From assembly GCF_018977255.1 (NCBI RefSeq), contig NW_024704896.1:1-64000 (forward strand): DNA of 64,000 bases, given 5' to 3'. How positions within the stretch are numbered: position 1 is the stretch's first letter; every line of letters begins with the position of its first letter. This document shows, in pieces, positions 33,001-64,000 of this stretch. The DNA is from Callorhinchus milii (lineage: Eukaryota). The position numbers are program-made.

Positions 33001-36000
33001 TTCGACTGAGATCCGGTCTGCTGATTCAAGAGAACAGCAAAAATTGCATGGCACTGTTGGAAAAGAGATTTCCAATTACTCTTTTCTTTACCATACAGAC
33101 ACGGCTGGAAAGGTTTTCAAGAGCAACAGTTCGTCCAGAATGTTTGGTGTATGATCAAATCAAGTTCAGAAAGCTATATTAATGTAGTCAGCGAAGAGTA
33201 AGAATACTTTTCAAGGAACCACTAGAAATAAATTTAAATGTTGATCATTTTAATATAGCCGTTTCAGTCTGTCTCTCCGTTATTTTGTGGGAGACAGTAA
33301 ATGAACAAAACAATCACTGTGCTTATGAATATCCAAAGCAAAACTGCCATTTCCATGTTTTCCGCATACACATGGAAATCTCAAAGACAAATTATTGGAA
33401 TTGAATGTAAACTCTCTCTCTGCTTACTTAATTCAGAAGAGTATTAGGCAAGACCCAAAACGTGGGGCCTTCCGAGTGTGCGTTGGGGAATCTGCTGTCA
33501 TCTAAGTTGCTCAAAGAACAAAGCTTGTTATTGATTTCGCTTTTAACAAGTTTTCCGCTGTTTGTCAGGCTATCACCATCCTTCCAGGATTCCCGCTGTT
33601 TGTCAGACTATCACCATCGTTGCAGGTCGCACTTTGGCTTGCAGGTTTAACAGTAGGCGAGTGAGAGAATTCCCTGCCCCGAGTGACTGGTGAATGCCGC
33701 GGTATAAAAGCAATTGGTTTTTGTATTGAAACGCGGCTGTGATGCCAATGAGGTGACGTGAGACTGTGGCTCCGCCAATGCCGACAATCACTGCGGGTTA
33801 TCAGCAAACTGATGGCACAGACACAACCACACAGACTGAAGAGCAGCAATGAGGCTGTTTGCTATCTGTCTTGTGCTGGGAACCTTTATGTCAGGTGAGG
33901 CCGTGTTGAGCTAATTCAGTGTTGGTGATGATGCTAAGCGCCATTTAAACGACAAATGTTGGAGTGAAACCTATATCTCAGTAGTTGGAGCTTTCGCCTC
34001 GCGAGAGGAGATGGGATCGATTCCCCAGCAGGAGAAATCTAAGGCGAATTTCTTTACTCCACAGAAACGCCTTTCTACACCTTGGAGGAAGCAGGAACCC
34101 GGATACTTTAAAAAACTGAGCAATACACCTTCCAAATATCAATTTCTCCATTCATTGGTTTTGAGTCGTTAGGTCGATCACTTTTTCGCGGGCAATAAAC
34201 ATTACTTGTCTGTAAATAATAATTTGCTAACTTATTCCACAACGTTTCTTGTGAAACTGCTGTGCGCAATTTCGCTCACAAAAATACACAGAAATTAACA
34301 GGATAGAACATTCTGTATAGCGCACACCGACGTCTCAACACCGTGATAATGTGCTCTATAAAATATACAGGTTATGGTGTAATTATAAACAAATGTCAAA
34401 TGTATAACTCGTTTCCTTTCAAGCCTAGATTAAGTAATATATTGTTGTGCTCTTCCTTGTTTAATACAGGCTTCTGCGATGGGGACTCTGTCACTCAGAA
34501 AGCTGCGACGATGGTTAAGAAAGAAAGAGAAACGGTGATTTTACAATGTACCTATTTCACGACTGAAAATGATTACGTTCTCCATTGGTACCGACATTAC
34601 ACAGGCAAACAGCGAGAGTTTATAATATGGAGATATTCTGGGAGTGAACTTGAAGAAAAAGGAGTTGGATTTGGAAACCGTTTCTCTGCTCAGCTTCACA
34701 AATCCAATTCTTCCACCAGTTTATCCATCTCAGAGCTGGCGGTGTCTGACAGCGCTGTGTATTACTGTGCATTTAGTCTCAGCACAGTGATAGACTGCAC
34801 TGCAAGTCTCGTACAAAAACTGCCTTCACTTTGTACATGGGGATGATCTGTCTGTTGAAGTGTGTGCTGAAACTTGGTGACGCCTTGTGGCCCTGCGGGA
34901 AGCTGACATGTCTGTAGTTAGACACAGAGGAAACCACATTCATCTCCCATCAACCTGTCAGCTCAACGTTCACCTCATTATCTGTCACAATAAATGCAGA
35001 CAGCAATTACTGAACAGTTACAGTTGCAGCTGCTATTGATTTACTTCGGTTTGCAGGTAAAATAAACACGAATACTGATTCTAATGCTTTTTTAAACGGA
35101 GCCCTATGACGAAGTGGGAACAGCTTTCACCTCACAAACGACAGGTCCCGAGTTCCATCCCCGGGCGGGTGAAAGCTTAGACAATTTTTCTCAATCCATA
35201 CACATTTCTCTATTTATCTTGCATTGAGTATGAACCCGATTGCACACCGATCGCTGGATTGCTTTTCCGGGTTTGCAGTATTCCCTTCAAAACATAATGT
35301 TGGTCACTCAATCCATTTCTGTTCAGGTGGATGTTAAATATACAAGAAATCTATTGTATTTGTTTTTAAACAGTAAATAAATCGTAAGTAAAATATTAAT
35401 TCGGTAATTCAATCTGGGACTCTTTGTGCGAAACTGATGTATGCATTTGGCTGATCCATTTTTCCAACAAAATATAAAATCGATCGACTCATCAGCATAT
35501 CTCTGAATCGCTTGCAACGTGATAAGGATCCATAGAAAATGTAACGATTATTAGGATGATGAGAATTAAACGGTCTCCAACCTGATCAAATCTATCGCCT
35601 CCTCCTCACCCACAGCAGTAAGCTGCTATGTCCTCCCAAACCATCGTTAAAGACAAAAAATAATTCCAAACTGCTGATTCCACTAATGATCAGCTCCAAC
35701 TCAGAGCCTCTAAGACATCTGAATGGTCAAGGCCAATGACTTTTGTGAAAGAGAGACACACAGAATACAGACAAACAGCACATAGACAGACAGATAGACT
35801 TACAGAAAGGCCGAGACAGGGATTAAAAATAATGCTTTTATTTGATACAGTCCACGACCGTGTCGATAAAACGTGATAAACCGCTTCACATGATATGCTG
35901 AAAAATAAACGTCATATTCCCTGCCTTCTCTTACTCCTCCATGTCCCCGGGTAGCCTTTCATCTCTTTGTCACCCCCTCTATCCCGACGTCTTATATATC

Positions 36001-63000: not shown

Positions 63001-64000
63001 AATGCATCGGGCGTGTCACTGATAATGGTGTCCTATTCTGCGTTGTTCAATGTGTCGAAATTTTGCTTTCGAATTATATTACTTCTAGCAGATGTTTGCT
63101 GGAGCTTTATAGAAAAATGTTCTTATTGCCGTGCACTTTGTCTGTGTTTGGGTGGAAATAATATCGAAATTAAACATGATTTGGAAGCACAAAATATTGG
63201 AAGATGGGACAGTGTTGGAGTGATAGCAATTAATGACCAATTTGAAATCAAATGATGTTATTGGTGACTGCATTACACCATGAACTGATTGCACAGTTTT
63301 TGCACCTTGTAGATTGAGAGCCGTGTGACTGTGGTTATAAAGAATATACCGAAGATGGATCACCAACCAAAGTAACCGTAACGAAAAGTAAGTGAGAAAT
63401 ACATCTGCAAATTTGCAGTTCACATCAATTTTATTCACATGAATAAGTAAAATGCTTTATTCGAAGTCATTGCTCCCAAATATATACAACTGAGCCATTT
63501 CAACAAACCACTTGACCGATTAAAATGTTTCCACTCGCCAGTGGTTCGGTAATTAGAGAACCTATTTGTACGATGAAACAACACGAGGGTAGATAATGAG
63601 GATTTATTTGCAATCTGTGAAAGGGAGCTGGAAGCAGATTCGATAATAAATTTCAGAAGGGGAATAAATTACAAGGTGATGTGAAAAGCACGTGGGAGTG
63701 GAATTGTTTGGACAGCTCTTCAGAAAGCTGGCTCAAACAAAATGGGTCGAATTGCCTACTTCTGTGGTTAACATTTCATAATTCCATGATGATATGTGAC
63801 TTTTAATGTGCCTTCTGTAGGATCGAGGTTCACAGTTTCCCAGTCACCGCCTGAACAAACTGCAATACACTGTCCAACTGGAATTATCATCTATTAACAA
63901 TAATCAGGAACTTGACACCATTTTTAAAATCTGTGTTATTTATAATTATGTCGAGAAGTTTAAATTATTTAGTGAAAAAAATACTTTTGTCAACTTATTG

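What the first reader, a model, noticed from the sequence alone, without database searches (positions are those of the whole stretch)
33849..63863. Three NAR-TCR cassettes produced by ~12-kb tandem duplication of a mixed V module
Seen: the order family-C V, NAR V-D-J, supporting V, family-E V, family-D V occurs at about 33.8-43.7 kb and 45.7-55.1 kb, and its first part recurs at 58.7-63.9 kb. Intergenic DNA and old CR1 fragments are shared too. NAR cassettes are therefore interleaved with conventional V genes and expand and decay with them as a birth-and-death unit, rather than forming a separate cluster.
Basis: seen in the sequence. Interest (0 to 1): 0.65.

Follow-up and report, generated by a model that had tools for sequence, protein, structure and literature searches.

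The report
Tandemly duplicated NAR-TCR V-gene modules
A roughly 12-kb block of five T-cell-receptor variable genes, one of them a shark-type "NAR" V-D-J cassette with its leaderless supporting V, has been copied in tandem at least three times and the copies have since decayed and exchanged pieces, which is an ordinary way for such loci to evolve.

Summary
On the + strand the order C-type V, NAR V-D-J, leaderless supporting V, E-type V, D-type V occurs at 33.8-43.7 kb (M1) and 45.7-55.1 kb (M2). Its first part recurs at 58.7-63.86 kb (M3).

Homology is colinear and not limited to exons. 4317 of 8759 non-exon, non-SINE bases of M1 align to M2, against 0, 0 and 90 for three control regions.

Each NAR cassette has a leader exon, a V with a 22/23-spacer RSS, one D with 12-spacer RSSs on both sides, and a J with a 23-spacer RSS. 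The J ends in a splice donor in phase with the supporting V's acceptor.

- A fourth, partial module (C fragment plus an intact E-type V, 56.4-58.5 kb) was missed.
- The copies are mosaics. M3 resembles M1 upstream of the NAR V and is 94-98% identical to M2 from the V RSS to 63863.
- Only the M2 cassette is intact.
- Shared CR1 fragments were not confirmed; shared old SINE fragments were.
- The supporting Vs lack the CDR1 cysteine described for elephant shark.

This is a new example of a known kind, of modest interest.

The parts
33849..34821 (+). M1 C-type V gene. Leader exon 33849-33894, V exon 34470-34782, 23-spacer RSS 34783-34821. Looks intact.
   Evidence: Pfam V-set E 7.9e-16. Best single-domain PDB rows are a TCR alpha chain (62.2 bits) and human Vdelta1 (61.6 bits).
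36549..38450 (+). M1 NAR cassette. Leader 36549-36591. V exon 37309-37591 with RSS 37592-37629 (spacer 22). D 37983-37998 between 12-spacer RSSs 37955-37982 and 37999-38026. J RSS 38365-38403 (spacer 23). J 38404-38450, then a GTATGT donor. The V reading frame is open. J has an in-frame TAA at its second codon.
   Evidence: The 25 best PDB rows are VNAR-type, best E 3.2e-14. Pfam V-set 29.6 bits.
36736..37057 (-). Young tRNA-derived SINE inserted in the M1 NAR leader intron. It is flanked by ATTGTA direct repeats, and M3 has the empty site. It sits inside an older SINE fragment that all three modules share.
   Evidence: Rfam tRNA match 36982-37044. 87.8% identity to the copy at 1437-1751. Flanks read. 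Old fragments at 49840-49930 and 61934-62044.
39743..39970 (+). CR1-like ORF2 C-terminal remnant. It lies in an M1-only stretch of about 1.2 kb that lengthens the J-to-supporting-V intron to 1657 nt, against 433 nt in M2 and M3.
   Evidence: The identification rests on a recalled motif. Pfam found 0 families.
40108..40447 (+). M1 supporting V. The exon starts after CACAG at 40108. RSS 40409-40447 (spacer 23). Pseudogene: a 1-nt deletion near 40288 shifts the frame.
41491..41823 (+). M1 E-type V pseudogene with three in-frame stops. RSS 41785-41823.
42819..43678 (+). M1 D-type V. Leader 42819-42864, V exon 43332-43639, RSS 43640-43678. The frame is open. Ser stands at the first canonical Cys, and there is a Cys in CDR1.
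   Evidence: Pfam V-set E 1.1e-11.
45699..46621 (+). M2 C-type V. Leader 45699-45744, V exon 46264-46582, RSS 46583-46621. Looks intact.
   Evidence: Pfam V-set E 8.8e-15.
49731..51278 (+). M2 NAR cassette, the only one with every part intact. Leader 49731-49773. V exon 50164-50452 with RSS 50453-50490. D 50831-50844 between RSSs 50802-50830 and 50845-50872. J RSS 51186-51224. J 51225-51278, then a GTAAGT donor. J reads ...DGSPTKVTVTK.
   Evidence: The 27 best PDB rows are VNAR-type, best E 7.4e-12. Pfam V-set 25.4 bits, just under the 26-bit cut-off.
51712..52052 (+). M2 supporting V. The exon starts after CTGCAG at 51712, 433 nt after the NAR J donor and in matching phase. No leader exon was found. 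RSS 52014-52052 (7/7 and 8/9, spacer 23). Open frame, no Cys in CDR1.
   Evidence: Pfam V-set E 3.4e-15.
53219..53530 (+). M2 E-type V pseudogene with stops and several frameshifts. No RSS passed the scan.
54762..55045 (+). M2 D-type V pseudogene with a 20-nt deletion. No RSS passed the scan.
56480..56790 (+). Partial module M2': decayed C-type V fragment. The 5' half has stops and indels.
57860..58339 (+). Partial module M2': intact E-type V. Leader 57860-57902, 91-nt intron, V exon 57994-58300, RSS 58301-58339 (7/7 and 8/9).
   Evidence: Pfam V-set E 2e-15.
58719..59767 (+). M3 C-type V. Leader 58719-58764, V exon 59410-59728, RSS 59729-59767. The frame is open, but both canonical cysteines are replaced (Arg and Phe), so it is a probable pseudogene.
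   Evidence: Pfam V-set E 2e-9.
61821..63387 (+). M3 NAR cassette, defective. Leader 61821-61863. The V exon acceptor AG is changed to AC before 62265. V exon 62265-62547 has the second canonical Cys replaced by Trp. RSS 62548-62585. D 62940-62953 between RSSs 62911-62939 and 62954-62981. J RSS 63295-63333. J 63334-63387.
   Evidence: Pfam V-set 23.0 bits, below the cut-off.
63821..63863 (+). M3 supporting V. Only the first 43 nt remain, after a TGTAG acceptor. Homology to M2 ends at 63863. The last 137 nt of the window match nothing else in it.

Best explanation
The region is part of a T-cell-receptor alpha/delta-type V array. An ancestral block of about 12 kb was copied in tandem by unequal crossing-over. 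The block held, in order, a C-type V, a NAR-TCR V-D-J cassette, its leaderless supporting V, an E-type V and a D-type V. The result is M1, M2, a partial M2' and M3.

The copies then diverged to about 70-78% identity in non-coding DNA. They picked up private insertions and lost genes piecemeal. They also exchanged segments. The latest exchange made M2 and M3 94-98% identical from the NAR V RSS to the start of the supporting V.

How a cassette would work, inferred from the anatomy:
1. RAG joins the NAR V (23-type RSS) to the single D (12-type RSS on both sides), and D to the NAR J (23-type RSS).
2. Separately, the supporting V (23-type RSS) joins to delta D/J segments downstream, outside the window.
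3. The transcript starts at the NAR leader. The NAR J donor (phase 1) is spliced to the supporting V acceptor (phase 1). This gives a chain with two V domains.

Only M2 has all the parts needed. Shown: the sequence elements, their order, phases and homology. Inferred: their use in rearrangement, splicing and expression.
For: Duplication:
- Colinear chains with constant offsets.
- 49% of M1 non-exon, non-SINE bases align to M2, against at most 1% for controls and nothing in 20 shuffles.
- Five positional V clades at 100% bootstrap.
- Old SINE fragments at matching places: the NAR leader intron of all three modules, and the heads and tails of M1 and M2.

Later exchange:
- Informative sites switch from 81 (M1=M3) against 38 (M2=M3) to 39 against 454 at about 62296. 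None of 1000 permutations reached this.
- Segment identities: V-RSS to D 94%, D to J 97%, J 98% for M2-M3, against 73-75% and 87-88% for pairs with M1. The NAR intron 3' part is 83% for M1-M3 against 72% for M2-M3.

NAR-TCR identity:
- VNAR chains are the best PDB matches.
- All 3 copies have a cysteine in the a-b loop and no Trp in the WYRK position. Venkatesh 2007 describes both (PMC1845163, passages).
- RSSs sit at matching positions in all three cassettes. The window holds 23 strong RSS-like sites, against 0-2 in 20 shuffles.
- J donors and supporting V acceptors are in the same phase.
- No leader candidate was found upstream of either complete supporting V.
Against: - No constant-region, delta D or delta J segment lies in the window. 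'TCR delta' therefore rests on V similarity and on the cassette's anatomy.
- Nothing here shows rearrangement or expression.
- The supporting Vs lack the CDR1 cysteine reported for elephant shark and nurse shark (0 of 2 complete copies).
- The M2 and M3 J reads GSPT where M1 has GSGT.
- The leader search also found nothing for three pseudogene Vs, so a blank from it is weak evidence.
- The abrupt end of homology at 63863, next to a near-identical tract, could be an assembly join.
- Global alignments of poorly matching segments inflate identities somewhat.
Confidence: 0.85

Rival explanations
1. The repeat, or at least M3 and its near-identity to M2, is an assembly artefact: uncollapsed haplotypes or a chimeric join.
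For: M2 and M3 are 94-98% identical over about 1.3 kb. The homology then stops abruptly at 63863, inside an exon, followed by sequence with no match in the window. The window has gaps elsewhere, at 22218-22353 and 47223.
Against: M1 and M2 are about 73% identical and M2-M3 is 72-88% upstream of the tract. That is far too diverged for haplotypes. Each module has private indels and insertions. No N lies at the tract borders.
Confidence: 0.05
2. The similarity reflects only V exons and interspersed repeats. The genes would have duplicated one by one and ended in the same order by chance or selection.
For: About 65 SINE-derived fragments litter the window. V exons of one family resemble each other anyway.
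Against: With exons and SINE pieces set aside, 4317 of 8759 bases still align colinearly. Three control regions with V genes and SINEs give 0, 0 and 90.
Confidence: 0.02
3. The high M2-M3 identity downstream of the NAR V reflects strong purifying selection on the D-J-intron region, not a recent exchange.
For: The region holds functional elements: RSSs, D, J and splice sites. The NAR 5' flank and leader are also conserved (88-94%) among all three modules.
Against: The same region is only 73-75% identical between M1 and either other copy, and 87-88% at the J segment. M3 is defective in V and supporting V, so selection on it is unlikely. The M2-M3 tract includes 295 nt of intron at 95%.
Confidence: 0.06
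4. The NAR-like cassettes are IgNAR-type antibody clusters or relics of them, not NAR-TCR.
For: The best structural relatives are IgNAR V domains. The RSS layout (V 23, D 12/12, J 23) is of a heavy-chain kind; that comparison is from recall.
Against: Each J is followed by a splice donor and, 433 nt later (M2, M3), by a leaderless V exon in the same phase, not by constant exons. There is one D per cassette, whereas IgNAR clusters have three (PMC4279169, passage). The Trp of WYRK is absent and the a-b loop Cys present, as described for NAR-TcR V (PMC1845163). The neighbours are TCR alpha/delta-like Vs.
Confidence: 0.02

Closest known systems
NAR-TcR of elephant shark and nurse shark (Criscitiello 2006; Venkatesh 2007, PMC1845163)
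   Same: An N-terminal V related to IgNAR V, with its own leader, a cysteine in the a-b loop and no Trp in WYRK. It has its own V-D-J set. A leaderless second V follows (paper passages).
   Different: Neither complete supporting V here has the CDR1 cysteine the paper calls conserved. M1 instead has a Cys in the first strand. Two of the three cassettes are defective. The Criscitiello paper was not held, so its gene map could not be compared.
IgNAR gene clusters of elasmobranchs
   Same: The V domain type.
   Different: One D here against three (PMC4279169). No constant exons follow. The cassette is embedded among TCR-type Vs.
TCR mu clusters of marsupials and monotremes
   Same: A chain with two V domains, encoded by tandemly repeated units, the second V acting as a support (PMC3457774, PMC2275272, passages).
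   Different: The papers regard it as convergent. Its V is VH-derived, its clusters carry their own C, and it lies outside the alpha/delta locus.
Block (cassette) duplications in vertebrate TCR and Ig V arrays; birth-and-death evolution
   Same: Several V genes of different families copied en bloc, then pseudogenised and partly homogenised. The comparison is from general knowledge, not from a call.
   Different: The duplicated unit here includes a complete V-D-J mini-locus plus its splice partner, not only V genes.

Membership tests
NAR-TCR cassette | N-terminal V domain of the IgNAR V type | tested here: met
   M1: the 25 best PDB rows are VNAR-type (22 named so), best E 3.2e-14. M2: the 27 best rows are VNAR-type (24 named so), best E 7.4e-12. 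M3 was not searched in the PDB; it is 77% identical in protein to M2.
NAR-TCR cassette | NAR V has its own leader exon | tested here: met
   MSLL... leader exons with GTAAGT donors in 3 of 3 cassettes. The acceptor is intact in 2 of 3; M3 has AG changed to AC.
NAR-TCR cassette | Cysteine in the a-b loop and no Trp in the WYRK motif (PMC1845163) | tested here: met
   3 of 3 copies. The a-b loop reads QEC, EEC, EEC. The WYRK position reads FYRK, FPMQ, FFMQ.
NAR-TCR cassette | Separate V, D and J segments with compatible RSSs | tested here: met
   V 22/23, D 12 and 12, J 23, at matching positions in 3 of 3 cassettes. Strong RSS-like sites number 23 in the window against 0-2 in 20 shuffles.
NAR-TCR cassette | Leaderless supporting V downstream, spliced to the NAR J | tested here: met
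   J ends one base into a codon before GT. The supporting exon starts with two bases before the first full codon, after a pyrimidine-rich AG. No leader candidate was found in 1 kb upstream of either complete copy. Splicing itself was not observed.
NAR-TCR cassette | Conserved cysteine in CDR1 of the supporting V (PMC1845163) | tested here: not met
   0 of 2 complete copies. CDR1 reads SGFWGQDFS in M2 and ILFIEEDFN in M1.
NAR-TCR cassette | Supporting V rearranges to TCR delta D-J and is expressed with C delta | not testable with these tools
   A 23-spacer RSS is present in 2 of 2 complete copies. No delta D, J or C lies in the window, and there are no expression data.
Tandem segmental duplication | Colinear homology through non-coding DNA, above controls | tested here: met
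   4317 of 8759 bases against 0, 0 and 90 in controls, and 0 in 20 shuffles.
Tandem segmental duplication | Paralogues group by position in the unit, not by module | tested here: met
   The C, NAR, supporting, E and D clades each have 100% bootstrap and 99-100% SH-aLRT, in a tree of 22 V exons.
   One CR1-like remnant is M1-only. One weak match lies in a shared block. Eleven ORFs from 33-64 kb gave no LINE domain in Pfam. The recalled reverse-transcriptase motif patterns matched nowhere in 33-64 kb; in that region only the CR1-type C-terminal pattern matched, once in this remnant and once by chance inside the M3 NAR V exon.
Gene conversion or unequal crossing-over between paralogues | Significant switch of nearest relative along the sequence | tested here: met
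   Maximum chi-square 220 at about 62296, reached by 0 of 1000 permutations. Segment table.

The most novel reading that the evidence does not exclude
The cassettes evolve in two modes at once. The D-J-intron-supporting-V junction is kept uniform by repeated exchange between copies, while the NAR V exons and their leader introns stay diverged. Block duplication would then multiply NAR V specificities on a standardised joining and splicing platform. This lineage's NAR-TCR would also be a structural variant: it lacks the inter-domain disulphide partner in the supporting V (no CDR1 Cys), and it uses a heavy-chain-like 23 / 12-12 / 23 RSS layout inside a TCR locus.
Probability: 0.15. Interest if true: 0.5.

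Novelty: new member of a known kind. Interest (0 to 1): 0.3.

Why it matters
NAR-TCR is the oldest known receptor chain with two V domains. How its cassettes multiply bears on how the single-domain NAR V moved between TCR and Ig loci.

This window gives a base-level example. The whole mini-locus (leader, V, D, J, splice partner) travels with conventional V genes in one duplication unit. It decays with them and exchanges segments with its paralogues.

That is what V-array evolution would predict. The presence of NAR V clusters in TCR delta loci is already in print (PMC3149040; PMC12227049 Fig. 1 legend). The value is therefore descriptive: precise coordinates, RSS types, splice phases and a list of which copies can still work.

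Tried and rejected
I then sent only stop-free ORFs. Ten ORFs from 35.9-60.4 kb gave no LINE domain, only two sub-threshold chance rows. The CR1-like ORF gave 0 families.
- A regex scan with recalled reverse-transcriptase and CR1 motif patterns found reverse-transcriptase boxes only at about 10.1 kb, outside the finding.
- A simple SINE-SINE recombination origin of the module junctions was considered. Head and tail SINE fragments are shared by M1 and M2. But the junction intervals (44334-44732 and 55954-56401) show no hybrid SINE and no mutual match. It is left open.
- Whether the supporting V is nearer to VH or to TCR V could not be settled. The PDB list of 60 rows was filled by multi-domain antibody constructs.
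- dN/dS of V exons: 0.51 for NAR M1-M2, 0.65 for C M1-M2, and about 1 for M1 paired with M3. This shows ordinary constraint and nothing more.
- One literature search was uninformative. None of its 15 listed papers, out of 2,701, held a NAR-TCR term.
- Criscitiello 2006 and Ott 2021 are not held.
- No structure prediction or complex prediction was run. No claim here needs one.
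Full report
**Scope and limits**

The window has two N runs, 22218-22353 and 47223. They were left alone. The organism was not determined. Extension beyond the window and comparison with other assemblies therefore stayed unchecked. Exons were searched one by one. The spliced (joined) model was deliberately not built or searched.

**1. Is the repeat there?**

A self-comparison (blastn, 324 HSPs) shows three + strand diagonals:
- offset 11.4-13.2 kb between 32.8-44.3 and 44.7-55.8 kb;
- offset 12.1-13.1 kb between 45.5-51.8 and 58.5-63.9 kb;
- offset about 25 kb between 33.7-38.5 and 58.5-63.4 kb.

Colinear chains:

| Pair | HSPs | Aligned nt | Identity |
|---|---|---|---|
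| M1-M2 | 9 | 6768 | 73.0% |
| M2-M3 | 7 | 3457 | 83.5% |
| M1-M3 | 7 | 2961 | 74.9% |

A profile built from the 11 intact V exons of the window finds V-like exons, all on the + strand:
- M1: 34475, 37320, 40116, 41497, 43343.
- M2: 46269, 50178, 51717, 53225, 54771.
- M3: 59415, 62276 and the first bases of one at 63826.
- Between M2 and M3: 56574 (partial) and 58002.

33849, 45699 and 58719 are the ATGs of the C-type leaders. 63863 is where M3 stops matching M2.

**2. Exons only, or intergenic too?**

I set aside exons with their RSSs and all SINE-derived pieces. 4317 of 8759 remaining M1 bases still lie in the colinear chain to M2. The figures are 2291 of 4914 for M2 against M3 and 1934 of 5139 for M1 against M3. 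The same test of M1 against three other stretches of the window, which also hold V genes and SINEs, gives 0, 0 and 90 of 8759. Twenty shuffles of M2 give nothing.

A tree of 22 V exons puts the C, NAR, supporting, E and D genes each in its own clade, with 100% bootstrap and 99-100% SH-aLRT. Each clade has members from different modules. That is the signature of en-bloc copying.

**3. What the genes are**

All nine V exons tested have Pfam V-set as best family. NAR M1 scores 29.6 bits. NAR M2 (25.4) and NAR M3 (23.0) fall just under the 26-bit cut-off.

- **C-type.** The C-type V of M1 matches TCR alpha (62.2 bits) and human Vdelta1 (61.6 bits) best among single-domain rows.
- **NAR-type.** The NAR-type Vs match shark VNAR structures first. 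For M1 these are the 25 best rows (22 named VNAR or new/novel antigen receptor), best E 3.2e-14. For M2 they are the 27 best rows (24 so named), best E 7.4e-12.
[quoted passage not shown] Venkatesh et al. 2007 give both as marks of NAR-TcR V in elephant shark and nurse shark (PMC1845163, passages read).
- **Copy number.** tblastn finds exactly three NAR Vs and three NAR Js in the window.

**4. Anatomy of a cassette**

Each cassette has the following parts.
- A leader exon MSLL(C/G)(V/I)SI(S/N)FLFLQ with a GTAAGT donor.
- A V exon ending at a heptamer CACAGTG or CACAATG, with a 22/23 spacer.
- About 350 nt further, one D of 14-16 nt with 12-spacer RSSs on both sides.
- About 340 nt further, a J with a 23-spacer RSS.
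- The J ends ...ACGAAAA|GT, one base into a codon.
- The next V exon begins ...CAG|GATCGAG with two bases before its first full codon, so the phases match. It lies 433 nt downstream in M2 and M3, and 1657 nt downstream in M1.
- No leader candidate was found within 1 kb upstream of either complete supporting V. The same search also found none for three pseudogene Vs, so this is weak on its own.
- The supporting V ends in a good 23-spacer RSS (M2: 7/7 and 8/9).

RSS-like sites are well above chance: 23 strong sites in the window against 0-2 in 20 shuffles.

One D per cassette contrasts with the three Ds of IgNAR clusters (PMC4279169, passage). With V 23, D 12/12 and J 23, the D cannot be skipped under the 12/23 rule. 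The rule is established knowledge; its use here is inferred.

**5. State of the copies**

From:

| Gene | M1 | M2 | M2' | M3 |
|---|---|---|---|---|
| C-type V | intact | intact | decayed fragment | both canonical cysteines lost |
| NAR V | open | intact | absent | acceptor AG changed to AC; second canonical Cys is Trp |
| NAR J | TAA at codon 2 | open; reads GSPT where M1 has GSGT | absent | open; reads GSPT |
| Supporting V | 1-nt deletion shifts the frame | intact | absent | only 43 nt remain |
| E-type V | three in-frame stops | stops and frameshifts | intact | not seen before the window ends |
| D-type V | open | 20-nt deletion | absent | not seen before the window ends |

So 1 of 3 NAR cassettes is intact, and that is M2. 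Conventional and NAR parts decay alike.

**6. Not a plain triplication**

Segment by segment:

| Segment | M1-M2 | M2-M3 | M1-M3 |
|---|---|---|---|
| NAR 5' flank and leader | 89% | 88% | 94% |
| NAR intron, 3' part | 71% | 72% | 83% |
| V RSS to D | 74% | 94% | 73% |
| D to J | 75% | 97% | 74% |
| J plus 90 nt | 88% | 98% | 87% |
| Rest of the J-to-supporting-V intron | no M1 counterpart | 95% | no M1 counterpart |

Informative sites in a three-way alignment switch at about 62296. Upstream there are 81 (M1=M3) against 38 (M2=M3). Downstream there are 39 against 454. The maximum chi-square is 220, reached in 0 of 1000 permutations.

The C-type exon of M3 groups with M2 and M2' (97/93). M3 is thus a mosaic of at least three histories. 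Exchange between paralogues explains this best. Constraint does not, because the same segments are 73-75% identical in pairs with M1, and 87-88% at the J segment, and because M3 is defective.

Synonymous divergence M1-M2 is 0.42 (NAR V) and 0.52 (C V), so the founding duplication is old.

**7. Mobile elements**

- Four Rfam tRNA matches mark the heads of a tRNA-derived SINE. About 65 fragments of it are scattered over the window.
- Old fragments lie at matching places in the modules: the NAR leader intron of all three, and the heads and tails of M1 and M2.
- A young copy (87.8% identical to the copy at 1437-1751) sits only in M1, at 36736-37057. ATTGTA repeats flank it, and M3 has the empty site.
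One CR1-like ORF2 tail (39743-39970; the motif is recalled and Pfam found nothing) lies in the M1-only 1.2 kb that lengthens the J-to-supporting-V intron. A weak relative (42366-42470, E 0.001) lies in a block shared with M2.

**8. Departure from the published description**

Venkatesh 2007 states that the associated delta Vs share a conserved cysteine in CDR1. Neither complete supporting V here has one. M1 has a Cys in the first strand instead. The supporting V's best single stretches in the PDB list were antibody VH domains (31-35 bits). The list was swamped by multi-domain constructs, so this is only a lead.

**9. What is known**

- NAR-TcR in a chimaera dates from 2007 (PMC1845163).
- A 2025 map legend colours NARTCR V exons among the other V fragments in chromosome-level assemblies (PMC12227049, passage).
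- The elephant shark genome paper refers its immune-gene detail to a supplementary note that I could not see (PMC3964593).
- Searches found no paper in the held library that describes a repeated module of this composition. The key primary papers are not held, so I do not claim it is unpublished.

**Verdict**

This is a real, well-defined tandem array of mixed V modules, each carrying a NAR-TCR cassette. It was shaped by duplication, decay and exchange. It is a new, well-resolved example of a known kind, of modest interest.

Noticed in passing
window 11300-32400: A second V-gene repeat of about 6 kb period. It holds three other V families (my labels A, B, X) at 12248, 15126, 16947, 19572 (pseudogene), 21343, 23504, 25781 and 30306, all on the + strand. 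Non-coding homology is 70-88% (for example 14455-15462 against 20670-21679 at 88%).
   Followed up: partly
window 43332-43639 and 54762-55045: Both D-type Vs have Ser at the first canonical cysteine and a Cys in CDR1 (..SDYCL(Y/H)WYRQ). This is a family trait kept across the duplication. It may mean a non-canonical disulphide. A CDR1 Cys is the feature the literature assigns to NAR-TCR supporting Vs, yet this V has its own leader.
   Followed up: partly
window 51712-52013: The supporting V has a VH-like framework 2 (WYRQSPGEGLKYL). Its best single stretches in the PDB list were antibody VH domains (31-35 bits). Within the window its nearest relatives are the B-type Vs (37-40% protein identity).
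   Followed up: partly
window 7-2313 versus 6016-3788; 16-711 and 5393-6456: A large inverted repeat (2.3 kb arms, 89.5% identical). Each arm begins with a 22-bp-period satellite (32 and 48 copies) and contains a full-length SINE.
   Followed up: no
window 9792-10529 (+): A LINE reverse-transcriptase remnant (Pfam RVT_1, E 1.4e-13) at the start of a G+C-rich stretch (53% GC at 10-12 kb). A 26-bp tandem repeat of 22.8 copies lies just upstream, at 9125-9718.
   Followed up: partly
window 36464-36591, 49646-49773, 61736-61863: The 85 nt upstream of the NAR leader ATG plus the leader exon are 88-94% identical among all three modules. That is higher than the V exons themselves, so this is probably the promoter and 5' UTR. 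In M3 the homology breaks abruptly just upstream, at 61732.
   Followed up: partly
window 46760-48900 and 60094-61260: About 2 kb between the C-type V and the NAR cassette is present in M2, partly present in M3, and absent from M1. It includes a single N at 47223 and a short-period simple repeat near 48.2 kb. Its origin is unknown.
   Followed up: no
window 63864-64000: Directly after the truncated M3 supporting V comes AT-rich sequence with no match in the window. It starts with a weak RSS-like site (63868-63905; 5/7 and 7/9, spacer 22). It may be chance, or the remains of an internal deletion.
   Followed up: partly
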